From the NCBI GenBank assembly GCA_017534945.1, contig JAFXVB010000013.1:10640-74639 (forward strand): a stretch of 64,000 nucleotides of DNA, given 5' to 3'. Every line of letters starts with the position of its first letter. Within the stretch, counting starts at the first letter, position 1. The translations under genes were made by a program, and so were the position numbers. The notes under the pieces were generated by a model, which saw only the letters and a list, made by a program, of their open reading frames with translations, did not search any database and was not told where the DNA came from. The DNA is from Alphaproteobacteria bacterium (GTDB taxonomy: Bacteria; Pseudomonadota; Alphaproteobacteria; Rs-D84). Below, one piece after another: positions 2,499 through 52,395 of this stretch.

Positions 2499-2506
2499 TT
2501 TTTTAT

Positions 2507-3721
2507 TTATTCCGCATTTTTCTTAACCATTTTAAATAATTTTTTACCGCCATTAAAAGTATCTTTTGTTAATTGCATTATACTGTCGCCCAATTTTTCT
2601 CCAACTGGATTTTTACTTGCAGATACATTGAATATACCCAAAATCATATTGGTCACTTTTGGGATATTGTCATAAATAAATTCTAATACATACACCAAAA
2701 CAACAACGCTGGCTATGGTTAAATCGTGAAGTCCCGAAGAATCCAAATCAAATTCAAAAACCTGGCCACTGTTGATTGCATTCAATAATGCATCGAAACT
2801 ATCACCTGTGTTATCAACAAAGAATCGCATAAGTATAACCAAAATAACAGTATAAGTAATCACCGCCGCCCCCAGCGACACAATTGCACTGATTACATTT
2901 TTAATTTGATCAACACCGACATCTTTACCTAATTTTTTTGCCCACGCCAACCAATCAGGCATATCGCCATCTTTGATATCTTGAAACGATGCGGTCACCA
3001 AAGATAAAGGAAAGAAAAACGCAAACATCGCCATTGCAACAATAACATCTGCGAAATAACATAAAAATTTAAAGAACATCTTGAAAAATGTTATAAACAA
3101 ATACAGACCAATAATCGCAAGAATGAAATGTTTTATAATTATACCAATATTAAAAATTTTAGGCCAAGAAAACGCAGTATCCAACATCGCAACCCCAAGT
3201 TTCATATAATTTTGAAACATGGTAATTGTGACTTTGGCTGTATCAATAATTGCATCGCGTAATTGCGGACGAAACATACCACTATCTGCCTCACTAATTT
3301 CCACAGGTTTATATAACACTTGGTCATCAATATGGTCTGGGGTTTGTTTCAACATCGCCACAGAGTATGTTTGTGTTAAATATGCGACCGGTTCAAATGT
3401 TACCATACTGACAAAACGCGGTACCATAACACCCATACCTAAAAATGCCAATGCAAATAAAGAATTTTTTATAATTGTCCATACCGAATTTTTAAACCAA
3501 CCATCTTTGAATCCATCGGCAAATTTACCGGTTAAATTTTTCCATACAACACCAAATATATAAAACCCAAAAATAATACAGAACAATATAGTGCATATTA
3601 CAACAAAATCATTATATACTGCGGCGGCGGCCTGGGACACAACCAAAAACAGGCGGTCAAACACCGGACAAGACCAGCATTGTACGGCATTATCAATAAA
3701 AGCGTATCCCAAACTATTCAT
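2507..3721 (-). CDS. VirB6/TrbL-like polytopic membrane protein (404 aa), CWSCPVF class
   Basis: Multi-TM protein with N-terminal VQCWSCPVFDRL, a motif shared with 5005..6345. Its start codon overlaps the upstream stop by 1 nt (TAATG at 3719-3723). Confidence 0.55.
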   Translation of the reverse strand: MNSLGYAFIDNAVQCWSCPVFDRLFLVVSQAAAAVYNDFVVICTILFCIIFGFYIFGVVWKNLTGKFADGFKDGWFKNSVWTIIKNSLFALAFLGMGVMVPRFVSMVTFEPVAYLTQTYSVAMLKQTPDHIDDQVLYKPVEISEADSGMFRPQLRDAIIDTAKVTITMFQNYMKLGVAMLDTAFSWPKIFNIGIIIKHFILAIIGLYLFITFFKMFFKFLCYFADVIVAMAMFAFFFPLSLVTASFQDIKDGDMPDWLAWAKKLGKDVGVDQIKNVISAIVSLGAAVITYTVILVILMRFFVDNTGDSFDALLNAINSGQVFEFDLDSSGLHDLTIASVVVLVYVLEFIYDNIPKVTNMILGIFNVSASKNPVGEKLGDSIMQLTKDTFNGGKKLFKMVKKNAE

Positions 3722-4944
3722 TATTTGCCTTTTACATATTGTTTGATGTCTTTTACTTTTCCAGGAATTGCCTTTGCAATTCCAAATCCTGTTTTTGCAT
3801 CCTTTTTAACTTTGTTGTATAACTCTGTTCCGTTGTTTCCAACATATTCAGTAAGTTTTTCGCGTGTAATTTCAAATAATTTATTCATCAAAAAGAAAGT
3901 TAGTATACACGACAACCATAATACAGAATGTCCACCAAACCCGCCGCCCCCATTTGTAAATGCGTTATTATTCCATTGAAACAATGCGTGTATCAACGCC
4001 ATGTTTACACATAATATAAAAGCACATGCAATCATCGTTATAATGATTTGTTTTAATGCATCAATAATCCCGGAAAAAGCCGGCCAAATATCAAACCAAC
4101 CATCGTTCTTTTTTGCAACCCATGCAACCACATTAAACGGATATAAAATCAAAGCCATGCCAAAATTAAATATTGCCTGGATAATTAATAATGCCATAAA
4201 TATATTACACCCTGTAAATGTGACAACCAATAATATACCACTGATGATATCCATAAACCCATGACCATCGCGAATCATAAATGTTGCCAAACTTTGAAAT
4301 CCATTTGATATATATTGAAAACCGCGTTTGACAATAGCATTATTTGCGCCCGACAAAACATGCACAGGTTGAATTAAATAATTGCAAGATTCTGCATCCA
4401 ACCAACCTTGATTTAACAAATTTTCTGGACAATGTATTTCGCGTCCCTGAATTTCTGTTGATGTTAAATCAGTTGATTGTTGTATAATTGCAGAAGTATA
4501 AATCGACCCAAAACTTAAAAAAGGATTTATTAAATATTTTGCCATTTTATCTGGATGCAAAGGTAATAATACAATAACCGCAACCAAAGCGCGTACCGAT
4601 GGTTTTAAAAGATTTTCTATAATTTTTATACCACCGGTGTTATTGATACTGTCCCCAGGTTTAAATCCAAAAGTGGTAAGCCAAAATTTCGGTACATAAA
4701 GTTTGATTAAATACGAAGCAATATAAAATATAAAAAATCCCCAAACCAAAACATAAACTATACCATTACCATCACCAACAAAATATGCATATGTTCCATT
4801 TGCAACATACATAAAAGAATCTAAAACAATTGGAACCAACCCAGAAATATCCAACGCATCAATAATCGATGCACAAGCCGTATTCGGCGCAAAAGCACCA
4901 AATACCAAGAACAATCCACATAAAAAATTTTTTATAAATTTCAT
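3721..4944 (-). CDS. VirB6/TrbL-like polytopic membrane protein (407 aa)
   Basis: Signal-like N-terminus (FGAFAPNTACA) and multiple TM segments. The DSFMY motif is shared with 1008..2498. It is the first gene of the minus-strand operon. Confidence 0.55.
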   Translation of the reverse strand: MKFIKNFLCGLFLVFGAFAPNTACASIIDALDISGLVPIVLDSFMYVANGTYAYFVGDGNGIVYVLVWGFFIFYIASYLIKLYVPKFWLTTFGFKPGDSINNTGGIKIIENLLKPSVRALVAVIVLLPLHPDKMAKYLINPFLSFGSIYTSAIIQQSTDLTSTEIQGREIHCPENLLNQGWLDAESCNYLIQPVHVLSGANNAIVKRGFQYISNGFQSLATFMIRDGHGFMDIISGILLVVTFTGCNIFMALLIIQAIFNFGMALILYPFNVVAWVAKKNDGWFDIWPAFSGIIDALKQIIITMIACAFILCVNMALIHALFQWNNNAFTNGGGGFGGHSVLWLSCILTFFLMNKLFEITREKLTEYVGNNGTELYNKVKKDAKTGFGIAKAIPGKVKDIKQYVKGK

Positions 4945-5004
4945 GTTTAATATTTGTTATTGTAATTATAGAACATTTTGATAAAGTTATGCTATAATTA
5001 AAAT

Positions 5005-6345
5005 ATGAATTGGTTAAAAAAATTTTGGATAACATTTGTATCTTTTCTGCCTTTGACGGCGGGGGCAATTACACCGTTGGCAATTGGTGCGATTGGTGCG
5101 GGTGTGGGCATAATTGGATTTTCAATTTATCGCAGTGTTTCACCCGTAAATATTGTTGATGCGTTGTCGTTTTTTTCATCATGTTGGTCGTGCCAAGTTT
5201 TTTCAAATATCATTGGTGAAATGTCTATGTTGTTGCCAATTACATACAAGTATTTGGGCAATGTAATAATACCTGTGGCGATTGCATTAACTGCGATTTG
5301 GTTCGCGTGGCAAATTACACAAATTTATATTGGACCAAAAAAAGATGTTGCCGATATAACCGATGGTGACGGCGTGGCAAATCCTTGGTCTATTGGCGGA
5401 AAATTTGGTTCACATTTGATAAAGGTTTTATTTGTATGTGCATTATTGGCGGTACCATTACCGCGGATGATATCAAATATTGTTATTGAACCAATGTTTG
5501 ACATTGGTTTATCTTTGAATTATTCAATATCCGATATTGATTCTCGTGAAAATTATGCCGATTGTATAATCGCAACCGCAATAGCGGATCGCACCAGTAT
5601 AGAGGCTGATTATCAACAATCATCTATCAATGCGTTTTCACCAAGATTCCGTCATAACCTTACATGTCAAATTGCAAATGTGCATCAAATGACAGGATTG
5701 GGTATGACAATTGGTTGGACAATGTTAAATATGGCGTTCAATAATGATTACATGCATAAAATAATTCTGGATATACCAATCTTTCCAAATATTCCTTTGT
5801 TGGCAACCGGATTATTAGTATTGGTATTGTATTTTACGGCATTATTGCCAATACCATTATATTTCTTGGAAATATTTATAAAATTGGCAATAGATTTCAT
5901 TTTGTTGCCATTGACTTTATTAAGTTGGTTGTTTGGCGGATGGAAATTATTTCCAAATGGCAAACGCAATTTTCAACAAATCATAGATGATGTTATAAGT
6001 GGCACTTTGGGATTAGCAATGACGGGGATATTTTTAACTTTTTCAATTATGGTATTAAATACTGTGTTTGGAAATACTGGCGACACCACCACTATCCATG
6101 CGGCAATTGCCCAAAACGATTCGAAATTATTAATAGACGGCCTTATGAATACAACGGCGAACACATCGCTTATCACCATAATATTGCTGGGTATATTTAT
6201 GACAATGTTTATGAATATGATACCGGCATTGATAAAATCGCTGTTTAATATCACAATATCCGACAAATACTATCAAACCGCGAAAAAAGACCTGAATATT
6301 TTATGGGATGGTGCAAAAAAAATCTGGAAATCTGCAAAAAAATAA
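5005..6345 (+). CDS. VirB6/TrbL-like polytopic membrane protein (446 aa), CWSCQVF class, divergent from the other four
   Basis: Multi-TM protein with the SSCWSCQVFSNI motif, as in 2507..3721. TGCTATAAT (4990-4998) lies 6 nt upstream of the ATG and there is no Shine-Dalgarno. Confidence 0.55.
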   Translation: MNWLKKFWITFVSFLPLTAGAITPLAIGAIGAGVGIIGFSIYRSVSPVNIVDALSFFSSCWSCQVFSNIIGEMSMLLPITYKYLGNVIIPVAIALTAIWFAWQITQIYIGPKKDVADITDGDGVANPWSIGGKFGSHLIKVLFVCALLAVPLPRMISNIVIEPMFDIGLSLNYSISDIDSRENYADCIIATAIADRTSIEADYQQSSINAFSPRFRHNLTCQIANVHQMTGLGMTIGWTMLNMAFNNDYMHKIILDIPIFPNIPLLATGLLVLVLYFTALLPIPLYFLEIFIKLAIDFILLPLTLLSWLFGGWKLFPNGKRNFQQIIDDVISGTLGLAMTGIFLTFSIMVLNTVFGNTGDTTTIHAAIAQNDSKLLIDGLMNTTANTSLITIILLGIFMTMFMNMIPALIKSLFNITISDKYYQTAKKDLNILWDGAKKIWKSAKK

Positions 6346-15745: not shown

Positions 15746-16891
15746 ATGAAAAAAATGAAAAAAATTTTACTGCTTTTGCCTGTGCTGTTTATGTGCGGTT
15801 TTGCAAATGCGGCATCATATCGTGCGGCGTTGGTTGCAGATATGGATTCTGGTCGTGTGTTGTATTCTGAAAATGCAAATGTTGCAAATTACCCGGCGAG
15901 TCTTACCAAGATAATGACATTGTATTTAACATTTAACGCGTTGGAACATGGGCGTTTGCACCTGGACGATTATTTAATTGTATCAAATGCGGCTGCAAAC
16001 GCGGAACCGGTAAAATTAGGATTGCCCGCGGGTTCTAAAATAAAGGTCGAAGACGCGATAAAGGCCGTCGCGGTACAAAGTGCAAACGATGTCGCGCGCG
16101 TTTTGGCGGAAAATTTAAAAGGTGGCAAAGAGGGTAATTTCGCATCACTCATGACCCAGGTTGCAACGGAAATTGGTTTGTCGAATACTAATTTTGAAAA
16201 TTCATCGGGGTTGCCAGATGATGATCATTTATCAACTGCGCGTGATATTGCATTATTGTCCATTGCGGTATATAAACATTTTCCACAATATTGGAAATAT
16301 TTTGGTATAAAAAATTGGAATTATAATGGTCAAACATACACAAATGGAAATCGGTTGTTGACATCTTTCCCGGGATGCGATGGTATGAAAACTGGCTTTA
16401 CAAATAAATCAAAATATTCACTTGTTGCAACTGCATCGCGTGACGGTCATCATTTGATTGCGGTGGTGTTGGGTGCGGATAACAAAGATATTCGCGCATC
16501 TGTGGCAACCAGTTTATTAAATCGTGGATTTAAAATGTTGGAAAATGGCGCAACACCTGTGATGGTAAACACAAATCCAACACCGGTATCAAATTATGTG
16601 GCAAAGCCAATAACAGAAAATAATCCATTGGCGAAATATACAAATGACGCATCGGGTCAAACAAAGTTGGCACATGGTGCGGCGGGTGTCCAATTTGGCG
16701 CGTTTTCATCGCGGGATGCTGCCCTGCGTCAGGTTAAAAATGTTGAAAAAACATTGGGCGTGCATGCGGAAATAGAACCTGCATCGGGCGGATTATATCG
16801 CGTTCGTGTGAATAATTTGGCAGAAAATGTGGCACAAAGTTTGCGAAACAGGGCGACCGCCGCCGGTATTGACAGTTATGTGTTTCATTAA
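15746..16891 (+). CDS. D-alanyl-D-alanine carboxypeptidase (PBP5/6 type) with C-terminal SPOR domain
   Basis: Signal peptide, SLTK (SxxK), SGL (SxN-like) and KTGFT (KTG) motifs. C-terminal GVQFGAFSSRDAA...LYRVRVNNL... is SPOR-like. Confidence 0.9.
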   Translation: MKKMKKILLLLPVLFMCGFANAASYRAALVADMDSGRVLYSENANVANYPASLTKIMTLYLTFNALEHGRLHLDDYLIVSNAAANAEPVKLGLPAGSKIKVEDAIKAVAVQSANDVARVLAENLKGGKEGNFASLMTQVATEIGLSNTNFENSSGLPDDDHLSTARDIALLSIAVYKHFPQYWKYFGIKNWNYNGQTYTNGNRLLTSFPGCDGMKTGFTNKSKYSLVATASRDGHHLIAVVLGADNKDIRASVATSLLNRGFKMLENGATPVMVNTNPTPVSNYVAKPITENNPLAKYTNDASGQTKLAHGAAGVQFGAFSSRDAALRQVKNVEKTLGVHAEIEPASGGLYRVRVNNLAENVAQSLRNRATAAGIDSYVFH

Positions 16892-23659: not shown

Positions 23660-25570
23660 TTATTTTGCTTTAAATTTCAAAATACGAATTCCAAATAACC
23701 GGATTTTTACATGTTTATCGGTTGATACATGCCTATCATAAATTGGAAAACCAAATAATTTAACAGTTAAATGTTTGTAATATACCCTAAATCCATTTTG
23801 TTTAGGTTTGCATTGAATAACATTGCGACCGATACAAGATTTTATTTCATTATAAATTTTATCGTATTTTTCACCATAACTTTTGCCGGCGGTAATATGT
23901 TCCAATACCTTTGTCAAAGAATATGCGTCATCCCATTGAAATTCTTTTTTACGAAATTCAGGCGTTCCCAATCCGCACAACAATCCAGGATTACGCAATA
24001 AAAATTCCAATTCTTTATATTTTGAACTATCTACGGCCAATTGGAAATCAATCAATTTCAAATGACCATTTGTCCATATTAGATTGTTTAATGTAATATC
24101 ACGATGCACAACATGCGATTTATCCAGGCATTTAAATATTGCATATATATCATCTATACAAACTTTCTTTTCCTTTGCCGACAATTTGTTTGAATTCAAT
24201 AAATCATACAAATTGTCACCGTCCGTCCATTTATATGCGACAAAATGACCATCGGCACAATCGCGCCAATACATTGGACGGATAAAATGTACATTATCCA
24301 TATCGTACAAGATTTTACCCATACGGTATTCATTGGCATATATACCGTAAATATCCCCGATTTTGATAAACATGCGGTTTTTATTCGCATCATACCCAGA
24401 TACAAACATATTATACGCCCGACTTATACTATTTGTATAAACGGTATGAATATCAGTAAAATCAAAGTTAGATTCTAAATATTTTTTATATTTATCAAAA
24501 TTACAAAGGTTGTTTGAAAAATACACAGACATATCATGTGGTCGTGTAAAATCATACCCATTGGTTTTCATAAAATCTAATAACAATTGGAAATATAAAT
24601 CAAAAGGCGATGTATATTTTTTGATATTATATTTTTTATGCAATCCTAATTTTACAAACAAAGCATAAATTTTATCATAATAATCAGATGCTATAATTTG
24701 TTTATTTATTAAACAATGATATATCAGCATATAAAAATAATTTTCTGTACTTGGGACACGAATAATACTGTCATAATATTCTGTAGTATTAAATATATTA
24801 TAATCCCATTTTTTATCATGATAATTATTATTTATATTCCATAAATCAATATAAACCAGTTTATCGCCCACAGATATCAAATAATGTGGACGATGTTCAG
24901 GAAAGTGCTTTTCGCCACCAATAATCCATCGCGCTGCATCATAATCTTTGACCATGATATCAACATCACCGTGTTCATGGCTGTTAAGAGTTTGTTTTAA
25001 ATCTTCAAAACCACGCAACACAACATAATCTGTTGTTGCATTTAAAGTATAAAATAATTCGTGTAAATCCGTCCAACCATGTGCACCGGTTATATCACGA
25101 TGAATAGTTTTGATTTTCCCATCCCATTTTTTCGGCAAAGATTTTTTCAAATCTTCATAATTTAATCCTAACAATAATGTAGAATCATGATTTGTTTCAG
25201 CCACAGAATTTGTTGTATGAACTTTATGACCGCCGCGTGTCCATTGACGATATTTTTGTTTTAATGAAAATATATTTATATTCACATATTCATGTCCACG
25301 TAATGTTTCTGTCATTTCGTATTTTGGATTATTATCACGCACAACCAACAATAAAAATCCGCTGGTTCCACATTCTTGTTCTTTACCAGAATTTTTAGGC
25401 AAATTTACACCGTAAAAACGAGTAAAATTATCGGCCACACAATCGCAAGACCAATGAACATCATACGCCGCCATTATATCAACATGTGTTTTAATATCAG
25501 CGACGATTTCATCTTGGGCGTATCTGGCATTTGCCCAAAGAACAACAAGGTGGATTTCTGTGTTTTTCAT
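23660..25570 (-). CDS. multidomain protein: unknown N-terminal domain, nucleotidyltransferase-like segment, protein-kinase-like/phosphotransferase C-terminal domain (636 aa)
   Basis: VLRGFEDL-x12-GDVDIMV fits the G-x(9-13)-DxD nucleotidyltransferase pattern. HVVHRDITLNNLIW...LKLIDFQLA fits the HRD catalytic loop plus a DFG-like motif. The C-terminal tail has repeated LFG(F/I). The gene is visibly more AT-rich than its neighbours. Confidence 0.7.
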   Translation of the reverse strand: MKNTEIHLVVLWANARYAQDEIVADIKTHVDIMAAYDVHWSCDCVADNFTRFYGVNLPKNSGKEQECGTSGFLLLVVRDNNPKYEMTETLRGHEYVNINIFSLKQKYRQWTRGGHKVHTTNSVAETNHDSTLLLGLNYEDLKKSLPKKWDGKIKTIHRDITGAHGWTDLHELFYTLNATTDYVVLRGFEDLKQTLNSHEHGDVDIMVKDYDAARWIIGGEKHFPEHRPHYLISVGDKLVYIDLWNINNNYHDKKWDYNIFNTTEYYDSIIRVPSTENYFYMLIYHCLINKQIIASDYYDKIYALFVKLGLHKKYNIKKYTSPFDLYFQLLLDFMKTNGYDFTRPHDMSVYFSNNLCNFDKYKKYLESNFDFTDIHTVYTNSISRAYNMFVSGYDANKNRMFIKIGDIYGIYANEYRMGKILYDMDNVHFIRPMYWRDCADGHFVAYKWTDGDNLYDLLNSNKLSAKEKKVCIDDIYAIFKCLDKSHVVHRDITLNNLIWTNGHLKLIDFQLAVDSSKYKELEFLLRNPGLLCGLGTPEFRKKEFQWDDAYSLTKVLEHITAGKSYGEKYDKIYNEIKSCIGRNVIQCKPKQNGFRVYYKHLTVKLFGFPIYDRHVSTDKHVKIRLFGIRILKFKAK

Positions 25571-25626: not shown

Positions 25627-26646
25627 TTAAAAATTGACCTTGAACGCAGTGGATAAAAACGGTGTTTCGGTTGTAAGACCAATCGATGTCCACAATTCTA
25701 AATTTTCACTGTATTTATATCGTGCAGAGTCAATAACAGTATGGTCATGATATTTTTCCATATCATTATGCCATATACCTGTGTGGGAATACATATATGA
25801 AACCGATACAGAATAATTCAAAATATCATAACTTAATCCTGTGCCGGCTGAAATTCCGTCGCCCGCGGTGCCAATTGGGTTTTTATCATATATCGCCAAT
25901 ACAGATGTTCCCCAAATCCAACTGTTATATTGTAAATTATAACCAACCGATCCTTGGGCACGCCAATCCGCATTTATATCAGGCGCATACGACACAGAAC
26001 TGTAATTATGTGGTTTGTCCATAAATGATGCGCCCAATGATACCGCAGATTTTAATTTTCCATTTGGAAATCTAAATTTCACGCCGCCGTCCACCGCATA
26101 ATCATATTCATCGCCAAACGCCGCAACCGATAACCCATATTGTCCCACGTTTGTTGGCATTGTCACCAAATTCACACGTGGTGCATCATGCCCGGTCGTC
26201 ACAGTTGTGTCCGGTATAATATTACCATGTGGCAAAATCTTTTTATAAAACAAAGGTTTGTGATTTACGCGTAATCCACCAACATCTGGAATACCAACAC
26301 CCAATTTATTTGCCACAGACGAAGTATATCCAACCTCTAACCGACCAAAATCACGTGATTCCCAAAGTGCAAATGCATCGTGTGCAAAATCGTGGTCGTC
26401 CAATGCGGTTTCGTCCCACTCGTACACCAAACCCAATGTTTGACCGCGTGCAATTGCATAGTTATACTGTCCGCGCAATTCAAAATCGCCCAAGAAAAGT
26501 GTTTTTTTGAATTTTGGTTCAAATATACCGGCAGCGCCCGATGCATTAAATTTGAACGCACTGCGTCCGCTATTAAATTGCAAAGCATTTGCATTTCCAA
26601 CTGTACCGATAACAAATGCCGCGACGGCCATTGTGATTTTTTTCAT
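25627..26646 (-). CDS. porin-like outer-membrane beta-barrel protein
   Basis: Signal peptide (VGNANA-LQ), alternating hydrophobic pattern throughout, and a C-terminal ...AFKVNF with terminal Phe. Confidence 0.65.
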   Translation of the reverse strand: MKKITMAVAAFVIGTVGNANALQFNSGRSAFKFNASGAAGIFEPKFKKTLFLGDFELRGQYNYAIARGQTLGLVYEWDETALDDHDFAHDAFALWESRDFGRLEVGYTSSVANKLGVGIPDVGGLRVNHKPLFYKKILPHGNIIPDTTVTTGHDAPRVNLVTMPTNVGQYGLSVAAFGDEYDYAVDGGVKFRFPNGKLKSAVSLGASFMDKPHNYSSVSYAPDINADWRAQGSVGYNLQYNSWIWGTSVLAIYDKNPIGTAGDGISAGTGLSYDILNYSVSVSYMYSHTGIWHNDMEKYHDHTVIDSARYKYSENLELWTSIGLTTETPFLSTAFKVNF

Positions 26647-29920: not shown

Positions 29921-29960
29921 AAAAAAAAGCACACATCACATGATGTGTGCATCTTTTTTT
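29921..29960 (-). terminator. rho-independent terminator of the virB8-9-10 operon
   Basis: GCACACATCA-CA-TGATGTGTGC palindrome (29929-29950) followed on the minus strand by T8. It lies 13-50 nt downstream of the virB10 stop. Confidence 0.8.
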
Positions 29961-29972
29961 ATTTCCGCACCG

Positions 29973-32435
29973 TCAGTTCATATCCAACGGCGGGAAACAA
30001 TCGCCACCACCGTCTGGGCAACAATTGAATCCTTGGTCGCCCATATCGGTATATGTTTCACCTGGACAGCATCCGTATTGATCAGGGGCCTGACCATCAC
30101 AATCCAAACTGCCCACGGGTTCTGGAACTATCGCTGTCGGTTTTTCAAACGGATTTTTGATAATGCCGGTATCATTACCTTCATCATCTTTTTCATATTC
30201 TAAGCCTAAAACATTTTTGTTAAATTCATCAGAATATATTGTATTGATTTTTCCAGAATCATCTTGTTCAACTGTATTGCTATATTTGGCATTTGTTGTT
30301 TTATTTTGATAATACGCATCGTATTTAGCCTGGTTTTTGGCTTGATAATTCTGCGCCTGACAATATCCCAATACAGTTCTGTAATCATAACCCGCCGCCG
30401 CAATCCGTTGCAAAGTTGCTTCGTCATTTTTCACAGTCCACACATTATTTTTCTGTTCACAATATTGCGCTAAATTAAATCCACGTGTTTGACCAGTCCA
30501 AGAAGAATCAGTGTTTTTAATTTCCAAACCACTGTTTTCTTGGATGTCGGACCATTTACGCCGGCTTTCACTACCATATGTATGAAATGCACATTTTTTA
30601 CCAGCATTAGGATTGGTTTTTTCGCCATCTGCATCATCGCCACATGTCGCAATTAAGTCAACCGGTGAATACACCGTTATACGTGTTCCCGCCGCAATTG
30701 AAAATGGCGGAACTGTATTATCCAATGCATCAACAATCAATTTCTGGGCAACTTGGTTCCATGCAGAAATAACCTCGTTCTTGGCCAGTTCCGAAGAACG
30801 TACAGTTCCTGATTGAACAACCGTATTATTATCCAAATCAATTTGATTTACAAAAGTATCCGCAATTGGTGCAATCATATTCACCGCCGCCGGAATCATC
30901 GCCGTCAACAAAGGCATAACCATTTGTTCAATATAATCAGTGCTGCCGTATCCTGGAACACCAACGCGCCCCTGGGAATCGGCCGAGTATGGCGATTGAC
31001 CGTCGCTGGCAAAATTAAATTCAACGCCATCTGGACGAATAAATTGATACCATTTAATCTTCATACGACCAATTGTTTTATATGGCCCCGGCAATTCGCC
31101 AGTCAAATATCCCATCAACAAAGTTCCAGTTGGTATAATAACAGTACGTCCATTATCTGAATAAACATTTCTATCAACCGTCGCACGCACAGGAATACCT
31201 GTACCGCCGTCGCATTTTCCTGTTTCTATATTGCATCCATAAACCGATGGATCTGCACGAACTTCGGATACAATTGTTGCCGGAATAGGCTTAAATTGAC
31301 GCAATATAAATGTTCTGTCGTATGGGCGACTGGAATAAACCGCTTCGCCTTCTGGGGCGGTTCCTTCCAAAGCTTTTTTATCAAAAGTATTTTTTACAAA
31401 ATTAAGCAATCCTTTATCTTCGCGTGGTTTCATTGTTGCGCGTAAATTTCCCATGCCGGCGGGTTCGCTGCTTTCAGCCCCAGATGCGCGGTTACCAATC
31501 GCGCCCGGTTTTGATTTTAATTTTGGTAAAGTATTTACATCAACCGTTCCGCCTAAATGGTCTGCATCTGTTCCAATTTTTTTACCTTTGCCATCAATAC
31601 TGGTAATTATACCGGTGTCTGGATTGTAAATTCCGGTTGGATTATTGCAATCTTTATCGGCAAAAGGATGAAATTCATAACGTCCATCTTTTGGTTTTAT
31701 CCAACCAATTTGTGCACCCGAAGGACTGTATCCTGGCATCGCAAAATCAGAACATTTTTCTGGTGCCTTTTTGCGTGGTGCCACCGATTCAATCGGTTTT
31801 TCTGGTTCGTCAAAAATATTTTTTTCCGCACCGATAATTGGTTCCGGTTCTGGTTCAGGTTCGAAAACAGGTTCTGGTTCCGGTATTATCACTGGTTCTG
31901 GGATTGGTTCTGGAATTGGTTCTGGTTTAACAACGGCGGCTTTGGCACTAACTGGGATAACAATATTCGCCGTTTTTTGATTTACATCGCGTGCCTCGCC
32001 TTTGTCGTGCCATTTTACAACCAAAGTCACATCCCCAGCATTATCAGTACTACCCGGGACAAATGTTGCATCAATCACACATGGAATATCTTTATTAATA
32101 TTTGCATTTGAACATGTTGATTTGATTGAAAAACCATCCACAGAATCTTTTACCGTCACAGATTCCACAATTGCGGCAAATGTCGCCTTGACCGTAAATT
32201 TCTGCTTTGCCTTGGTCCCGATTTGTGTGTCAGAAAAATTAGCAGTTTTTGGTTCGATAATCAATTGAACATCACGATTTGGTTCAATTGGTGCCGCGAC
32301 TTGTTTTGGTTTGCTCAACAACAAAAACAACAAAACCAGCACAACAATAAACGCCGCAATCAAAAGTATCCAACGAACAGCCTTTGGTGTTGCGTTTAAT
32401 GTTTCTCTTAATTTATCTTTTATTTTATTTGCCAT
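29973..32435 (-). CDS. virB10: VirB10/TrbI-family T4SS protein, expanded (820 aa)
   Basis: N-terminal TM (aa 21-40) and a Pro-rich PEPIPEPIPEPVIIPEPEPVFEPEPEPEP. VirB10 core at about aa 370-595 (IPATIVSEV..., IIPTGTLLMGYLTGELPG, RMKIKWYQFIRPDG, ITVYSPVDL). It directly follows virB8-virB9. Confidence 0.85.
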   Translation of the reverse strand: MANKIKDKLRETLNATPKAVRWILLIAAFIVVLVLLFLLLSKPKQVAAPIEPNRDVQLIIEPKTANFSDTQIGTKAKQKFTVKATFAAIVESVTVKDSVDGFSIKSTCSNANINKDIPCVIDATFVPGSTDNAGDVTLVVKWHDKGEARDVNQKTANIVIPVSAKAAVVKPEPIPEPIPEPVIIPEPEPVFEPEPEPEPIIGAEKNIFDEPEKPIESVAPRKKAPEKCSDFAMPGYSPSGAQIGWIKPKDGRYEFHPFADKDCNNPTGIYNPDTGIITSIDGKGKKIGTDADHLGGTVDVNTLPKLKSKPGAIGNRASGAESSEPAGMGNLRATMKPREDKGLLNFVKNTFDKKALEGTAPEGEAVYSSRPYDRTFILRQFKPIPATIVSEVRADPSVYGCNIETGKCDGGTGIPVRATVDRNVYSDNGRTVIIPTGTLLMGYLTGELPGPYKTIGRMKIKWYQFIRPDGVEFNFASDGQSPYSADSQGRVGVPGYGSTDYIEQMVMPLLTAMIPAAVNMIAPIADTFVNQIDLDNNTVVQSGTVRSSELAKNEVISAWNQVAQKLIVDALDNTVPPFSIAAGTRITVYSPVDLIATCGDDADGEKTNPNAGKKCAFHTYGSESRRKWSDIQENSGLEIKNTDSSWTGQTRGFNLAQYCEQKNNVWTVKNDEATLQRIAAAGYDYRTVLGYCQAQNYQAKNQAKYDAYYQNKTTNAKYSNTVEQDDSGKINTIYSDEFNKNVLGLEYEKDDEGNDTGIIKNPFEKPTAIVPEPVGSLDCDGQAPDQYGCCPGETYTDMGDQGFNCCPDGGGDCFPPLDMN

Positions 32436-32465: not shown

Positions 32466-33986
32466 TTACTGAATTCTTACCACGCGACATCCCGATACTT
32501 GGAACTTCATCAATTTGTCGCAAAGTGTTTGTGCGGTATCAATATCAGCAATCGGTCCAATACGTAAACGATATAATGTGGCCGAAGATGCACCGGTACC
32601 CAAATCACCAACACCGGTTGAATCAACCGCATAAAACACACTGTTTTGATATGGTGTCAAAAGTCCGCTGCCAGAATCACCTGTAAATTTATTTAACAAT
32701 TCTGCCCAATAATCATCCAAAGCCTTTACCGAAGTATCGGATGCCAATTCAACCGCAACACCGGCTTGATTAGATGTAATCAACGGAATATTTGATTGTG
32801 GTAAATATGCACCGGCTGTTTCACGTTTTGTTGGAATCATGGAAACACCATTGCCGGTCGTACCAATTGTGCCGGTATTTTGCATCATTGGAACCCCATA
32901 ACCCGCCGGCATATAAACCCCGGTTCCCATTGGATTATTTGTATCACCGATATACATTGGTGTTGAACCATACAAAGATGCATCATTAATTGCCGCCATA
33001 TCTGCACTGTATGCGATATTATTCAAAGATTGGTTGGACATCATGCTTTGTGCAACATTTGCCTCGGCCAATGCCATAACAGAGGCAGTATCCGCAATCA
33101 AGAACGGTTTTTCGCGTTTTTTGATACATACAATGCGTTGACCACTGCGCAATACCATATCACCAACGGCTTCTACAATCAATAAACGACCGTCTTGTCC
33201 ATCTGTGCGAAATCCCACAGGGGATTCACCACCTTCAATTAACAAAGATACAACCGGACGTTGTGTCATTGCGATAACTTTGTCGCCAAAGTCAATATAT
33301 GTAAATACCTTGTCGCGCCACACACGTTCTGGGGCAATAACATAATCGTCTGGGTTTGGAACAAATATATCTAAATCAAATCTAAATTCAGACGGATCAA
33401 TTTTCATAGATTTTATCCATGCGTAATCTTCGCCATCAACACCCACAGTACTTGTTGTTGGTGTGGATTTCTTGAATATAGAATTCATACCACCCGATGT
33501 TCTGGCGGTTGTTGCGCCCGCATTTCCAACAGTTGCGCCATTGTCCAAAACAACATCAACCTGGGAATAAGAAATTTCTGCATCATTAACAAGTCCGGAA
33601 CTGGTCAAATAAAAGATATATTTATTACCTGATTGTCCGGTCACAATCATATTTGTATCAGATTCATTACCCGACATAGGTGTAATATAAAAAGTTTTAT
33701 CACCTTGGGTTGCTTCAATTTGGAACAAGGATTGATCACCGACAACCGCGTCTGCGATTTGTTCACCATTTGGTAATGTCACCATGGTTACCATACCGTT
33801 GCGCAATTTTAATGGTAATACCGAACCTGGCGCCCAAGATAATTGTGCATAACCTGGCTTACTGCTACCTGCGGCCATGTTTGCGGTTGGGTTTTCCCAC
33901 GCCTTTTGAATTGCGGCGGTGGCAACATTAATCGACGACAACACCAACAAACATACCAAACCATTTATTTTTAACAACTTTAACAT
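32466..33986 (-). CDS. virB9: VirB9/TrbG(CagX)-family T4SS protein with C-terminal SPOR-like domain (506 aa)
   Basis: Signal peptide. N-domain AVVGDQSLFQIEA...TNMIVTGQSGNKYIFYLTS. C-domain VFTYIDFGDK...PVVSLLIEGGESPVGFR...LRSGQRIVCIKK. A Met/Gly/Asn-rich linker follows, then VAVELASDTS...LYRLRIGPIADIDTAQTLCDKL...GCRVV. Confidence 0.85.
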   Translation of the reverse strand: MLKLLKINGLVCLLVLSSINVATAAIQKAWENPTANMAAGSSKPGYAQLSWAPGSVLPLKLRNGMVTMVTLPNGEQIADAVVGDQSLFQIEATQGDKTFYITPMSGNESDTNMIVTGQSGNKYIFYLTSSGLVNDAEISYSQVDVVLDNGATVGNAGATTARTSGGMNSIFKKSTPTTSTVGVDGEDYAWIKSMKIDPSEFRFDLDIFVPNPDDYVIAPERVWRDKVFTYIDFGDKVIAMTQRPVVSLLIEGGESPVGFRTDGQDGRLLIVEAVGDMVLRSGQRIVCIKKREKPFLIADTASVMALAEANVAQSMMSNQSLNNIAYSADMAAINDASLYGSTPMYIGDTNNPMGTGVYMPAGYGVPMMQNTGTIGTTGNGVSMIPTKRETAGAYLPQSNIPLITSNQAGVAVELASDTSVKALDDYWAELLNKFTGDSGSGLLTPYQNSVFYAVDSTGVGDLGTGASSATLYRLRIGPIADIDTAQTLCDKLMKFQVSGCRVVRIQ

Positions 33987-34010: not shown

Positions 34011-34688
34011 TTACTCTACCTCGGTCCAATTCAGCGGGTCTTTATCTCCCTTTATAATTTCATAGCCACTGACCCGCACGCCCAATGGGTTTTCCATGCG
34101 TTCAGCCCACCGAATAGAATTTTGTGCCGTTGTTTCCAAAGTGACATCAATAACAAATTCTTGGATATATTCTTGATCACCCAAGAAACCATCGCGACAC
34201 TTATATGCAAATTTCACAGTATATGTATCATTTGTTCCAACCTTTAACACGACCGGATAATTTTGATGAAATTCAACATCGCACGTGATGTTAAAAGCCT
34301 CATCTAAATCTTGATTTACGATATTTACCATATCGGTCAGCAAGAACTTACCGAACACAGCATCGGTTGAACGTGTTTTTATAATACCGTCATCACCCAT
34401 CGACCATCGTGCACGCATAATTGCCAAATCAGGTACAATTTCGTTCCTTTGCCGTACATAATCTTTTACAAATTCGACCCGATATTTGGCTAAATCCTCT
34501 GGAATTTTAGTCAATGTTAATTCTTTATCCGCCATGTTTTCGGTGGTCAAAAAGAACACTTGGGGCCGATTAAGCGGGAACATTTTATCCAATGTGACAA
34601 CCAATACAACCAACACAACCAACGCCGTTGCCATAACAAAGGTCATAAGTCTGGATATCAAAATTGGCGGTTCTATGCGTTCTTGCAA
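34011..34688 (-). CDS. virB8: VirB8-family T4SS protein
   Basis: Single TM (FVMATALVVLVVLVVTL), an NTF2-like periplasmic domain and the NPLGVRVSGY motif (VirB8 NPxG signature). I prefer the TTG at 34688, which has a strong AAGGGGGAG SD 7 nt upstream. The longest ATG ORF would start at 34790. Confidence 0.8.
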   Translation of the reverse strand: MQERIEPPILISRLMTFVMATALVVLVVLVVTLDKMFPLNRPQVFFLTTENMADKELTLTKIPEDLAKYRVEFVKDYVRQRNEIVPDLAIMRARWSMGDDGIIKTRSTDAVFGKFLLTDMVNIVNQDLDEAFNITCDVEFHQNYPVVLKVGTNDTYTVKFAYKCRDGFLGDQEYIQEFVIDVTLETTAQNSIRWAERMENPLGVRVSGYEIIKGDKDPLNWTEVE

Positions 34689-34945
34689 AGGTTTTCTCCC
34701 CCTTTTATAAATTGATTGTAGACAAAATATAAACCCATGCGCAAGTAAAAAAGTGATAAAATTTATGTTTGAAATAAAAATATTTATCAAATATCAAAAT
34801 CTCGCTGTAATGAAATGAAAGCGGATGAAAAAATACTTGCGCAAAAATAATTAAATATTTATAATACTTTTCGCTTGATTTTTGCCTGGGGTGTGCTAAC
34901 CTTGGCAAGAATATTGGTTATTACGCGTAAAAACAAGGGGTTCAC

Positions 34946-50025: not shown

Positions 50026-52275
50026 TTATAATCCACATGTATTATTGTTGTTTACATTCTTGGAACATGTATTATTACTCCACTTACACACATTTGTTCC
50101 CAACTTACCTGTCCCAGAAACAACGCAATATGCTCTTGCACTGTCGCAATCTTCTTCTTCTGTAAATGTTGAACAGAAAGACCTCACTTCTGTATCACTG
50201 TTAAGGGTTTCTAAACTACCATAATTACCAGCAACCCAGTTTTGTAATGTCGGTGACGATACAGTGCCATAAATATTACCGTTCACAGACAAACATGTTT
50301 TGATTTGTGAATAGCAAGCATTAATTGCGGTTCTGCTCTTTGTGTTTGTTGGGTTTGCAGAATCAAAATTGTTTGAAGACAAACAGCTGGACACATCACT
50401 TATGCAATTTTCTGCATATGATGCCAACATTTCGTCTTGTGCTGTTTTGATTTGCACCAACGCGCGTTGCATGAACTGTTTTATAACATCGTTTTCCGGA
50501 TTATATTTACCCTTGGAATCGTATGTATAATCTTGGCATTTATTCAACACAGACACGCACATACCATAATCTTTATTTGCCTTGCTGTCATGATATCCAA
50601 TCTTGCTTTGCAAATACGCAGACATTTTATCCGAAGACCCCTGGGCTGCCGCCGCTTTCACAGTTTGTTCTATGTAATTAACCAATGAAATATAACCTTG
50701 GGTATTGCCGTTTTGTGCTTCGGTATAACCGCTCTTTGTGTACCATGGATTGCGTTTATCTGTGGATGACACATCCCATGTACTGAACAAATTATCATGT
50801 GAATATGTTTGTGATATTGTTGTATTGGTACCTTCGGTATTATTACCCGGCATACTGCCCACAACAACATTTCCATCCACGATAAATTGACCGGTTGGAT
50901 CAAGGCACTTTTCATAACCATTTCCGCAAACATAATCATCTTGCATGCATGATTCCAACGCACTGACGCAACCACGCAAATCATAAGAATTCTTGCTTTG
51001 TGCAACCATCAAACGTGCTTTTTTCAAAACTTCTTTTGCATTTGCAACAGTTTGTGTCATTTGTTTATTAGATTCTGTCAAAGCGCGTTCGTACGCCAAA
51101 CAAGATTTATCAATTTCCAAATCGTATGAATTTGTGACAACCGCCGCATCAACGCCTTGGGTTGTACAAGAATTCAAAACCGATGCCTTGCAACGCGCGG
51201 TCGCAGTTTTATATAAACTTTCACCGCGTTGATTTGAAATACTATTTGTGTTTGAACCACCCACATTCATAAAACTGGACAAATCAAATCCGGTATTATC
51301 CATATCAAAATTCAAAAGTCCCGATAAATCAAAATTCATAGCACTGCTTTCTGTTGCAGATGCAGACCCCGATTTAACATCAACAACCATACGTCTTACT
51401 TTGTCCAAACTTGAACGAATAGAAGAGTTATCCTTGGAATCCTTCATTGTCAATTCTGCTTCGGTTTCTGTGAACAAAGTTGTTATTTGATCCGCGGGCA
51501 AACCGATGTATTGAATACTGCGTGCGACATCTTGTAATGCCTCTGTTGCAGATGCCAAAGCCGCTTCTGTTTTTTCATAGTTGGCAATGTTTTTGGAACA
51601 TGTGCAACGTCCTTGGTTATCGTCCAACACATTACAATAATTATCCATACACGAAGCATATTGAGCCTGGCAATATTCGGTCAAAGTCTTCATTGTATTC
51701 ATTTCTGTTGTTGTATCAATTGCGGTTTCTGCGGTTGTCACCGGTGTTGTCGTTGCCGGCGTAACCCCCGACGCGGCACGCATAGAACTGCGTGATAACA
51801 CAGATGCGCGTGCGCCACTGCGTGTATTTGCATTATACAAAGAACCCGATGTTGAACCCAATGTTGCCGCGCGTGCCGTCACGCCTGGGCGTGCATTTGA
51901 TTGAACTGTGTCTGCCTTGCGTGTTGTCACAGATGTCGTCCGCACAGGTGTTGTGGTATTGCGTACAGAAATATTGCGTGAACGAACCGCATTCGAACGG
52001 GTCGGTTGTGTCCGTGTATTGCGTGTGGTGCTTGTACGTGCCGATGCAATACGACCGGTTGTTCCAATATTGCGCCCGGAATTACTTGGCTGTGTCTTTG
52101 TCGCACTTGTATCCTGTGCTGGTTCTGCCTCGTTTTCCACTTCTATGGTGCCGGTATCGACTTCGCCCAATTCGACATCAGAAAATACTGTGTCATCATC
52201 GTAATACGACGGTACAACTTCGGCAAATGCCGGTAAAACCAACAGGCTGCTAAGTACAACGACTAATCTTTTCAT
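50026..52275 (-). CDS. secreted protein: signal peptide, acidic stretch, Thr/Arg/Ser-rich low-complexity region, large Cys-rich C-terminal region (749 aa from the ATG at 52275)
   Basis: MKRLVVVLSSLLVLPAFA-EVVPSYY..., then TSTTRNTRTQPTRSNAVRSRNISVRNTTTPVRTTSVTTRK. More than 30 Cys follow in recurring C-x6-9-C pairs (YCQAQYASCMDNYCN..GRCTC). No family recognised. Confidence 0.7.
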   Translation of the reverse strand: MKRLVVVLSSLLVLPAFAEVVPSYYDDDTVFSDVELGEVDTGTIEVENEAEPAQDTSATKTQPSNSGRNIGTTGRIASARTSTTRNTRTQPTRSNAVRSRNISVRNTTTPVRTTSVTTRKADTVQSNARPGVTARAATLGSTSGSLYNANTRSGARASVLSRSSMRAASGVTPATTTPVTTAETAIDTTTEMNTMKTLTEYCQAQYASCMDNYCNVLDDNQGRCTCSKNIANYEKTEAALASATEALQDVARSIQYIGLPADQITTLFTETEAELTMKDSKDNSSIRSSLDKVRRMVVDVKSGSASATESSAMNFDLSGLLNFDMDNTGFDLSSFMNVGGSNTNSISNQRGESLYKTATARCKASVLNSCTTQGVDAAVVTNSYDLEIDKSCLAYERALTESNKQMTQTVANAKEVLKKARLMVAQSKNSYDLRGCVSALESCMQDDYVCGNGYEKCLDPTGQFIVDGNVVVGSMPGNNTEGTNTTISQTYSHDNLFSTWDVSSTDKRNPWYTKSGYTEAQNGNTQGYISLVNYIEQTVKAAAAQGSSDKMSAYLQSKIGYHDSKANKDYGMCVSVLNKCQDYTYDSKGKYNPENDVIKQFMQRALVQIKTAQDEMLASYAENCISDVSSCLSSNNFDSANPTNTKSRTAINACYSQIKTCLSVNGNIYGTVSSPTLQNWVAGNYGSLETLNSDTEVRSFCSTFTEEEDCDSARAYCVVSGTGKLGTNVCKWSNNTCSKNVNNNNTCGL

Positions 52276-52395
52276 GTGAAACACTCCTACTTTTACAACT
52301 ATTTTATCATATTTTACGACATAAAACAAATAAAAAAATATGGCAAAAATAATATTTTGCCTTTAAAAAATCAAAATCGAATTGAAAACAGAATT

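What the first reader, a model, noticed from the sequence alone, without database searches (positions are those of the whole stretch)
32466..32768. VirB9 fused to a C-terminal SPOR-like peptidoglycan-binding domain
The 506-aa VirB9 is about 200 aa longer than usual. After both VirB9/CagX domains (ending ...LRSGQRIVCIKKREKPF) and a Met/Gly/Asn-rich linker, the last about 100 aa are AGVAVELASDTSVKALDDYWAELLNKF...ATLYRLRIGPIADIDTAQTLCDKLMKFQVSGCRVVRIQ. This matches the SPOR pattern (V.L.S...A...W..L ... YR.R.GP.....A...C..L...G..C.V). It also parallels the SPOR tail of the carboxypeptidase in this same window (15746..16891: GVQFGAFSSRDAA...LYRVRVNNL). SPOR domains bind denuded glycan strands. Fused to the outer-membrane core-complex subunit, such a domain would tether the T4SS to peptidoglycan, possibly septal or remodelled peptidoglycan. 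Other T4SS delegate that role to separate OmpA-like or lytic-transglycosylase subunits. I am not aware of this fusion having been described.
Basis: partly seen in the sequence, partly recalled or inferred. Interest (0 to 1): 0.7.

Follow-up and report, generated by a model that had tools for sequence, protein, structure and literature searches.

The report
VirB9 with divergent SPOR-like tail
The outer-membrane core subunit (VirB9) of a type IV secretion system in an uncultured, reduced-genome gut alphaproteobacterium carries a conserved C-terminal domain related to the SPOR cell-wall-binding domain, but its key sugar-contacting glutamine is always glutamate, so it may not bind the usual ligand.

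Summary
ORF 32466..33986(-) encodes a 506-aa VirB9 with a signal peptide, a CagX/VirB9 domain (aa 48-290), a 113-aa Met/Asn/Ala-rich linker predicted to be disordered, and a 98-aa C-terminal domain.

The tail is a true but divergent SPOR homologue:
- It just clears Pfam's SPOR cut-off, and all 40 relatives tested match SPOR.
- hhalign against bona fide SPOR domains gives 97.7% probability over the whole domain.
- The AF2 model is beta-alpha-beta-beta-alpha-beta, and its top PDB fold hit is the RlpA SPOR domain.

The fusion is not an assembly artefact. In 79 of 80 species-level genomes (Ca. Enterousia and other gut or rumen Alphaproteobacteria; 266 genomes hit) the tail sits in one frame with VirB9, between virB8 and virB10. 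More distant Rickettsiales-like MAGs have it too.

The twist is in the binding site. The hallmark glycan-contacting Gln (RlpA Q270, FtsN Q251) is Glu in 206 of 207 tails. FtsN Q251E is a published binding-defective mutant. The arginine patch is kept.

So peptidoglycan tethering is plausible, but canonical targeting to denuded or septal glycan is doubtful. I found no paper describing the fusion. I class it as a new variant of a known kind, of moderate interest.

The parts
32466..33986 (-). virB9 gene: 506-aa TrbG/VirB9-family protein with a C-terminal extension
   Evidence: ORF. Pfam CagX E 1.2e-21. The full-length AF2 model matches VirB9 of X. citri (6gyb_B, E 1.5e-10) and R388 TrwF, and also DotH and CagX.
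33915..33986 (-). Sec signal peptide, about aa 1-24 (MLKLLKINGLVCLLVLSSINVATA/A); no lipobox
   Evidence: Read directly from the sequence. AF2 predicts an N-terminal helix at aa 2-18. No signal-peptide predictor was run.
33117..33845 (-). VirB9/CagX core (N-terminal and C-terminal beta-sandwich domains), aa 48-290
   Evidence: Pfam PF03524, aa 48-290. The N-terminal domain has pLDDT 85-91, and 7o3t_B/8rt6_v give TMt 0.79-0.84.
32763..33101 (-). Linker, aa 296-408: the first 25 aa are highly conserved, and the rest is low-complexity (Met/Asn/Ala/Thr/Gly-rich) and variable in length
   Evidence: Composition, and lengths of 71-136 aa across relatives. pLDDT about 30-38. Conservation profile.
32469..32762 (-). 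Divergent SPOR-family domain, aa 409-506 (beta-alpha-beta-beta-alpha-beta)
   Evidence: Pfam SPOR. hhalign 97.7%, E 1.9e-12, over SPOR positions 3-82. AF2 topology. Foldseek top hits are the RlpA SPOR domain, 6i09_A and 6i05 (E 8.7e-4, prob 1.0, TMt 0.75).
32748..32750 (-). Codon for Glu413, at the position of the hallmark SPOR Gln (RlpA Q270, FtsN Q251)
   Evidence: Alignment. E in 206 of 207 tails and D in 1. Codon checked. Role of the Gln: PMC6895207. The Q251E defect.
32562..32570 (-). Arg473-Leu474-Arg475 on beta3, matching the RlpA R309/R311 basic patch
   Evidence: Role of the patch: PMC6895207.
32487..32522 (-). Invariant Cys489 (helix 2) and Cys500 (beta4): a probable disulfide pair, shared with alphaproteobacterial SPOR proteins
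   Evidence: C in 233/233 and 232/232 sequences. The same two Cys columns are at least 90% conserved in alignment A2. The disulfide itself is inferred.
34011..34790 (-). virB8, upstream gene of the operon (24-bp gap)
   Evidence: Pfam VirB8, E 3.4e-5. Synteny holds in 79 of 80 related loci.
29973..32435 (-). virB10 (820 aa), downstream gene (30-bp gap)
   Evidence: Pfam TrbI, aa 384-590. Synteny holds in 79 of 80 related loci.
29929..29950 (-). Hairpin plus T-run terminator that closes the virB8-9-10 operon
   Evidence: 9-bp stem with 5 GC pairs, followed by TTTTTTTT.

Best explanation
The gene encodes the VirB9 outer-membrane core subunit of a chromosomal, Rickettsiales-like (rvh-like) P-type T4SS in Ca. 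Enterousia (order Rs-D84), a group with genomes under 1 Mb. After the normal VirB9 domains come a flexible tether of about 110 residues and a disulfide-stabilised domain that descends from the SPOR family.

Most likely the tether lets this domain hang from the outer-membrane core complex into the periplasm. There it would dock the machine, in many copies per complex (avidity), onto the cell's own peptidoglycan. That would stabilise or position the T4SS.

The binding face is conserved but chemically remodelled. Gln is replaced by Glu, and Phe by Asp. The Arg-x-Arg patch is kept, and a conserved GV(G/D)(D/E)LG loop is added. The ligand is therefore probably not the canonical denuded glycan bound in the canonical way. 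It may be a modified glycan, or the binding may be weaker.

Shown: the domain architecture, SPOR homology, the fold, conservation of the fusion, and the residue substitutions. Inferred: periplasmic location, peptidoglycan binding, and the tethering role.
For: - SPOR homology: Pfam (40 of 40 tails match SPOR and nothing else). hhalign 97.7%, E 1.9e-12, over the whole domain.
- An exhaustive profile search returns strong multi-SPOR proteins.
- AF2 topology, with the RlpA SPOR domain as the top Foldseek hit.
- Fusion conserved in one frame in 79 of 80 species genomes, with virB8 and virB10 flanking. 266 genomes were hit. Fusions of 34-44% identity occur in other Alphaproteobacteria and Rickettsiales MAGs.
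- The tail is about as conserved as the VirB9 core.
- The linker is disordered and variable in length.
- Other T4SSs use separate peptidoglycan-binding subunits, DotK and Dis1 with OmpA-like domains (PMC9302130).
- The host makes peptidoglycan and LPS (DD-carboxypeptidase and LpxD in the window; MreB, RodA and MrdA per PMC12306168).
- Basic patch R473/R475 is retained.
Against: - Glu replaces the hallmark Gln in 206 of 207 tails. In 30 ordinary SPOR domains the same column is Q 25, H 2, E 2, N 1.
- FtsN Q251E reduces denuded-glycan binding and septal localisation.
- The amide of RlpA Q270 donates H-bonds to the MurNAc lactyl carboxylate and the GlcNAc N-acetyl oxygen. A carboxylate cannot do this.
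- RlpA F274 (CH/pi stacking) is Asp here.
- Pfam aligns only the C-terminal half of the domain.
- The tail-only AF2 model has modest confidence (pLDDT 66).
- There is no direct evidence for topology, ligand or function.
- No other T4SS genes (virB4, virB6, virB11, virD4) lie in the window.
Confidence: 0.55

Rival explanations
1. A canonical SPOR function. The tail binds denuded (amidase-processed) glycan strands and so recruits or anchors the T4SS at septal or new-pole peptidoglycan. This would be analogous to the AMIN domains that bring the PilQ secretin to division sites.
For: - SPOR homology and fold.
- Retained Arg patch.
- According to PMC6895207, most SPOR-glycan contacts come from main-chain atoms, so sequence-divergent SPOR domains can bind the same ligand.
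- Many copies per complex could make up for weak affinity.
- There is a precedent in AMIN-dependent recruitment of PilQ (PMC5285504 and PMC10653833, listed).
Against: - The exact Gln-to-Glu change is a published binding-defective mutation in FtsN. It is fixed in 206 of 207 tails.
- The F274 equivalent is lost.
- Near-invariant acidic residues (E413, D417) sit on the face that must accept two MurNAc carboxylates.
Confidence: 0.22
2. A SPOR-derived fold re-purposed for a ligand other than the cell's own peptidoglycan. It could be a protein partner within the T4SS (for example, replacing or binding a VirB7-like lipoprotein or the extended VirB10). Alternatively it could be displayed on the surface as an adhesin for a partner cell's wall or glycan.
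For: - The conserved but non-canonical charged face (E413, K/A415, D417, R473, R475) and the family-specific conserved loop GV(G/D)(D/E)LG.
- The segment 296-320, directly after the VirB9 C-terminal domain, is highly conserved and predicted helical.
- The VirB9 C-terminal domain lies at the outer-membrane face (general knowledge of pKM101 TraO).
- The host has a reduced genome and is probably partner-dependent.
- The neighbouring VirB10 also carries large lineage-specific extensions.
Against: - No SPOR domain is known to have a non-peptidoglycan ligand.
- No partner has been identified.
- There is no evidence that the linker crosses the outer membrane.
- The retained Arg patch argues for an anionic, glycan-like ligand.
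Confidence: 0.2
3. An artefact: an assembly or gene-calling fusion of virB9 with a separate SPOR gene, or a chance resemblance to SPOR.
For: The Pfam SPOR hit is marginal and partial (22.0 bits against a cut-off of 21). Contig-end fragments are annotated on their own as 'SPOR domain-containing protein, partial'.
Against: - More than 120 full-length clusters of about 500 aa come from independent assemblies.
- The same ORF and frame occur in 79 of 80 species genomes.
- hhalign E 1.9e-12 and a Foldseek top hit on a SPOR domain.
Confidence: 0.02

Closest known systems
SPOR domains (Pfam PF05036) of FtsN, DamX, DedD, RlpA and CwlC
   Same: The same beta-alpha-beta-beta-alpha-beta RNP-like fold. Profile-level homology over the whole domain. 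The YR-x-R-x-GP beta3 motif with the Arg patch. The Cys pair shared with alphaproteobacterial SPOR proteins.
   Different: The hallmark beta1 Gln is Glu, and the F274 equivalent is Asp. A conserved loop of about 14 residues is inserted between beta2 and beta3. The domain is attached to a secretion-system subunit rather than to a divisome protein or a peptidoglycan hydrolase.
Canonical VirB9/TrbG/TraO/TrwF (P-type T4SS outer-membrane core complex) and the Rickettsiales rvh VirB9
   Same: N- and C-terminal VirB9 domains. virB8-virB9-virB10 gene order. The duplicated virB8 and downstream virB11 in the distant relative L081 resemble the rvh arrangement.
   Different: About 210 extra C-terminal residues (linker plus SPOR-like domain). 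The score is far below the NCBIfam VirB9 equivalog cut-off (52.5 against 217.7). No virB11 or virD4 lies next to the operon in Enterousia.
OmpA-like peptidoglycan-binding subunits DotK and Dis1 of the Legionella Dot/Icm outer-membrane cap
   Same: A T4SS outer-membrane complex fitted with cell-wall-binding modules (PMC9302130).
   Different: These are separate polypeptides with an unrelated fold (OmpA-like) that recognises the peptide stem. Here the module is a SPOR-type fold fused covalently to VirB9.
AMIN domains of the type IVa pilus secretin PilQ
   Same: A peptidoglycan-targeting domain fused to the outer-membrane channel subunit of an envelope-spanning machine. It is proposed to bring the machine to division-site peptidoglycan (papers listed).
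   Different: A different fold, N-terminal position, a secretin rather than VirB9, and experimentally supported. The analogy here is functional and untested.

Membership tests
SPOR domain (PF05036) | Match to the Pfam SPOR HMM at or above the gathering score | tested here: met
   22.0 bits for the whole protein and 26.5 bits for the tail alone, against a cut-off of 21. Only profile positions 41-73 of 76 are aligned. All 40 tails tested match, best E 8.3e-8.
SPOR domain (PF05036) | Homology over the whole domain to bona fide SPOR domains | tested here: met
   hhalign of A1 against A2: 97.7%, E 1.9e-12, tail 24-118 aligned to SPOR 3-82. The A2 members score Pfam SPOR 1e-22 to 1e-31. The A2 profile finds the CwlC SPOR structure 1x60 at E 2.3e-9.
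SPOR domain (PF05036) | RNP-like beta-alpha-beta-beta-alpha-beta fold with a four-stranded sheet | tested here: met
   AF2 elements E-H-E-E-H-E, with domain pLDDT 66-88 in the full-length model. Foldseek top hits are RlpA SPOR 6i09_A and 6i05, prob 1.0, TMt 0.75.
SPOR domain (PF05036) | Conserved beta1 Gln that H-bonds the MurNAc lactyl carboxylate and the GlcNAc N-acetyl group (RlpA Q270, FtsN Q251, DamX Q351) | tested here: not met
   Glu413 aligns with the Gln. The column is E in 206 of 207 tails and D in 1. In ordinary SPOR domains it is Q 25 of 30. Q251E is binding-defective in FtsN.
SPOR domain (PF05036) | Basic patch on the sheet that receives the lactyl carboxylate (RlpA R302, R309, R311) | tested here: met
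   R473 and R475 align with R309 and R311. They are R in 223 and 224 of 233 sequences. No equivalent of R302 was identified.
SPOR domain (PF05036) | Binds peptidoglycan glycan strands that lack stem peptides | not testable with these tools
   This needs sacculus pull-down or ITC with synthetic glycans.
VirB9/TrbG (PF03524; TIGR02781) | CagX/VirB9 domain match and VirB9 fold | tested here: met
   Pfam CagX E 1.2e-21. Foldseek hits 6gyb_B (E 1.5e-10), 8rt6_B and 7o3t_B. The NCBIfam equivalog model scores only 52.5 against a cut-off of 217.7, so it is a family member but not an equivalog.
VirB9/TrbG (PF03524; TIGR02781) | Operon context between virB8 and virB10 | tested here: met
   The order is conserved in 79 of 80 loci.
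Complete P-type (rvh-like) T4SS | Presence of the VirB4, VirB11 and VirD4 ATPases and of VirB6, VirB2 and VirB3 | tested here: inconclusive
   None was found in the 64-kb window. virB11 follows virB10 in the distant relative L081. The rest of the genome could not be searched.

The most novel reading that the evidence does not exclude
The VirB9 tails define a new specificity class of SPOR-fold domain, the 'Glu-type'. Their remodelled, conserved binding face would recognise something other than canonical denuded glycan. Candidates are N-deacetylated or otherwise modified peptidoglycan, or the wall of a partner cell if the tail is surface-exposed. The domain would then position or dock the T4SS of these reduced-genome, probably partner-dependent gut bacteria.
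Probability: 0.25. Interest if true: 0.7.

Novelty: new variant of a known kind. Interest (0 to 1): 0.5.

Why it matters
How T4SS core complexes are positioned in the peptidoglycan layer, and held there, is poorly understood. A cell-wall-type domain fused covalently to VirB9 and conserved across hundreds of species offers a simple, testable handle on that question.

The fixed Gln-to-Glu change is the same substitution used experimentally to cripple FtsN's SPOR domain. This family is therefore a natural experiment on SPOR ligand specificity.

The hosts, Ca. Enterousia (order Rs-D84), are widespread, uncultured gut and rumen bacteria with genomes under 1 Mb. A conserved chromosomal T4SS with unusual VirB9 and VirB10 extensions may be central to their presumed dependence on partner organisms.

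Tried and rejected
- A PDB sequence search with the tail profile gave only noise (antibody heavy chains, E about 0.1). Homology became visible only through profile-profile and fold comparison.
- A word-based homologue search with the tail alone returned only contig-end fragments of the same VirB9 family and no new architectures.
- Direct BLASTP of the tail against the carboxypeptidase SPOR domain in the same window gave no alignment. The tail is therefore not a recent intragenomic copy.
- Assembly or gene-fusion artefact: rejected.
- P0216/P0214 carry the same tail on a non-VirB9 N-terminus. I considered them as evidence for a second architecture but set them aside. The gene sits at a scaffold end among Gram-positive/CPR-like genes, so the scaffold is probably chimeric.
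- I looked for virB11 in the window and in 80 related loci by tblastn and found none.
- The papers with the primary FtsN and DamX mutagenesis (PMC3837948, PMC3732209) are not held. A search for mutant names was uninformative. The Q251E information was taken instead from bioRxiv 10.1101/2024.05.13.594014.
- The LRR and plant NLR hits in the exhaustive search (P0194, P0196) are low-complexity false positives.

Full report
**Observation**

The window holds an ORF at 32466..33986 on the minus strand that encodes 506 aa.
- Pfam finds a CagX/VirB9 domain at aa 48-290 (E 1.2e-21).
- Pfam also finds a SPOR match at aa 469-500. It scores 22.0 bits against a gathering cut-off of 21, or 26.5 bits when the tail is scanned alone. 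It covers only profile positions 41-73 of 76.
- The neighbours are virB8 (34011..34790, 24-bp gap) and an 820-aa virB10 (29973..32435, 30-bp gap).
- A strong hairpin terminator at 29929..29950 closes this three-gene operon.
- On the other side lie tRNA-Trp, secE, nusG and rplK.
- The segment between the VirB9 core and the tail (aa 296-408) is 113 aa. It is enriched in Met (8.8% against 2.8% elsewhere) and Asn (9.7% against 4.1%) and has only 8 charged residues.

**Is the fusion real?**

- A search of about 5.8 billion proteins returned more than 120 distinct clusters of about 500 aa. They are 69-100% identical over the full length and come from many independent assemblies.
- A scan of one genome per GTDB species with the tail alignment found 266 genomes. 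The 80 loci fetched are gut, rumen and faecal Alphaproteobacteria MAGs, many named Candidatus Enterousia.
- In 79 of those 80 loci the tail lies in the same ORF and frame as the VirB9 N-domain, with virB8 upstream and virB10 downstream. nusG is adjacent in 66 of the 82 loci examined.
- An exhaustive HMMER search of 1.84 billion cluster representatives with the tail profile also recovered much more distant fusions: P0185, P0190, P0192, P0197 and P0205. These are 34-44% identical over the full length and 463-577 aa long, and all contain CagX. They come from 'Alphaproteobacteria bacterium' and 'Rickettsiales bacterium' MAGs.
- In one of them the locus reads virB8, virB8, virB9 (577 aa), virB10 (2274 aa), virB11. 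This resembles the Rickettsiales rvh arrangement; that comparison rests on my own knowledge.

An assembly artefact is excluded.

**Is the tail a SPOR domain?**

Four lines of evidence agree.
1. All 40 non-redundant tails tested match Pfam SPOR and no other family, with a best E of 8.3e-8.
2. The exhaustive search with the tail profile returns, after the VirB9 fusions, bona fide multi-SPOR proteins. P0201, P0208, P0210 and P0212 score Pfam SPOR at E 1e-22 to 1e-31.
3. An hhalign comparison of the tail alignment (A1) with 11 SPOR domains from those proteins and from the window's own DD-carboxypeptidase (A2) gives 97.7% probability and E 1.9e-12. It spans 80 columns, that is the whole domain. The A2 profile in turn finds the solved SPOR structures of CwlC (E 2.3e-9), FtsN and RlpA.
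4. AlphaFold2 predicts beta-alpha-beta-beta-alpha-beta.
   - The tail-only model has pLDDT 66.
   - In the full-length model, built from a more diverse alignment, the domain reaches pLDDT 66-88.
   - Foldseek's best PDB matches for the tail are the P. aeruginosa RlpA SPOR domain with and without bound denuded glycan (6i09_A and 6i05; E 8.7e-4, probability 1.0, TM 0.75 on the target).
   - The same hit reappears with the full-length model, which otherwise matches VirB9 of X. citri and R388, DotH and CagX.

A sequence-only PDB search with the tail profile found nothing, so the domain is a divergent member of the family.

**The binding site**

According to the RlpA-glycan structures (PMC6895207):
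- Only Q270 is highly conserved among SPOR domains. Its amide donates H-bonds to the lactyl carboxylate of MurNAc(1) and to the N-acetyl oxygen of GlcNAc(2).
- R302, R309 and R311 form a basic pocket for the carboxylate.
- F274 stacks on MurNAc(3).

In the hhalign alignment and in the RlpA sequence shown:
- Q270 corresponds to Glu413.
- F274 corresponds to Asp417.
- R309 and R311 correspond to Arg473 and Arg475.

Across 207 tails with a residue in the Gln column, 206 have Glu and 1 has Asp, and this includes all the distant fusions. Arg473 and Arg475 are R in 223 and 224 of 233 sequences. Two Cys (489 and 500) are invariant. In 30 ordinary SPOR domains from the same search, the Gln column is Q 25, H 2, E 2 and N 1.

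[quoted passage not shown] The VirB9 tails have thus fixed precisely the change used to disable a canonical SPOR domain. They still keep a strongly conserved sheet face, and they have a family-specific conserved loop, GV(G/D)(D/E)LG, between beta2 and beta3.

**Interpretation**

The domain is under purifying selection, at about the same level as the VirB9 core. It sits at the end of a linker that is disordered and variable in length, 71-136 aa. VirB9 is exported: a signal peptide is visible in the sequence.

The most economical reading is a periplasmic tether that hangs from the outer-membrane core complex and docks onto the cell wall. It would play a role similar to the separate OmpA-like subunits DotK and Dis1 of the Dot/Icm system (PMC9302130). 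It is also conceptually similar to the AMIN domains of the PilQ secretin (papers listed).

The Gln-to-Glu and Phe-to-Asp changes make canonical denuded-glycan recognition doubtful, and so also the 'septal targeting' idea. A modified ligand, weaker binding compensated by avidity, a protein partner and surface display all remain open.

My rough probabilities are:

| Claim | Probability |
|---|---|
| SPOR-family homologue | about 0.95 |
| Binds some form of peptidoglycan | about 0.6 |
| Canonical denuded-glycan binding | about 0.2-0.25 |

**Host and context**

Ca. Enterousia (order Rs-D84) has genomes under 1 Mb. It lacks a TCA cycle, a respiratory chain and standard transporters, and it encodes MreB, RodA and MrdA (PMC12306168). 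That paper does not discuss a T4SS.

The window is ordinary chromosome. It carries rpoB/C-sized ORFs, yidC, lpxD, plsX, comEC, pyruvate kinase, and a DD-carboxypeptidase with a canonical, Gln-bearing SPOR domain. No virB4, virB6, virB11 or virD4 lies in the window or next to the operon in the related loci. As in Rickettsiales, the remaining genes would have to be elsewhere in the genome, and this could not be checked.

**Novelty**

- No paper in the library holds both 'VirB9' and 'SPOR domain'.
- None of the papers that combine 'type IV secretion' with 'SPOR domain', or 'VirB9' with 'peptidoglycan-binding domain', has a title or abstract that describes such a fusion.
- Automated annotation has partly seen it. 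Some relatives carry precomputed PF05036 plus PF03524, and NCBI names contig-end fragments 'SPOR domain-containing protein, partial'.

I rate it a new variant of a known kind: a known machine and a known domain family, in a new architecture with an atypical binding site. Interest is moderate, at 0.5.

Noticed in passing
window 29973..32435 (-); L081 4115..10939: VirB10 is 820 aa. It has a Pro/Glu-rich repeat (about aa 170-205) and the TrbI domain at aa 384-590. A C-terminal extension of about 230 aa follows and ends in a Cys-rich tail (CDGQAPDQYGCCPGETYTDMGDQGFNCCPDGGGDCFPP). In a distant relative the VirB10 reaches 2274 aa. Lineage-specific expansions of both core subunits suggest an unusual outer face of this T4SS.
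   Followed up: partly
window 33027..33101 (-), VirB9 aa 296-320: The segment LIADTASVMALAEANVAQSMMSNQS, directly after the VirB9 C-terminal domain, is 93-99% conserved across relatives. AF2 predicts a low-confidence helix there (aa 303-314). Its function is unknown; it may be an outer-membrane-associated or partner-binding element.
   Followed up: no
window 32598..32615 (-), VirB9 aa 458-463: A conserved GV(G/D)(D/E)LG motif lies in a loop of about 14 residues inserted between SPOR strands beta2 and beta3. It is absent from ordinary SPOR domains, is shared by most of the distant VirB9 fusions, and has low pLDDT in the models.
   Followed up: partly
window 15746..16891 (+): A DD-carboxypeptidase (Peptidase_S11) with a full-length canonical SPOR domain at aa 310-379 that keeps the hallmark Gln (GVQFGAF). 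It shows no pairwise similarity to the VirB9 tail.
   Followed up: yes
window 29929..29950: A perfect 9-bp palindromic hairpin flanked by T-runs on both strands. It acts as a bidirectional terminator closing the virB8-9-10 operon. No virB11 or virD4 follows.
   Followed up: partly
window 1008..6345, 25627..26646, 50026..52329: Four consecutive large ORFs (496, 404, 407 and 446 aa) and two others (339 and 767 aa) have no Pfam match. They are candidate lineage-specific proteins, and could be T4SS substrates or envelope proteins.
   Followed up: no
window 23660..25570 (-): A 636-aa ORF with a weak C-terminal match to protein kinase/RIO domains (aa 437-526). The Pkinase hit (30.8 bits) is just below Pfam's cut-off (31.7) and the RIO1 hit (23.4 bits) is just above its cut-off (22). 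The N-terminal 430 aa are unassigned.
   Followed up: no
L082 6001..7353 (protein P0216; also P0214): The same Glu-type tail is attached to a non-VirB9 N-terminus. The gene sits at the very end of a scaffold whose other genes (rpmH, rnpA, yidC, jag, LytR_cpsA_psr) look Gram-positive or CPR-like. The scaffold is probably chimeric. If it is real, this would be a second architecture for the domain.
   Followed up: partly
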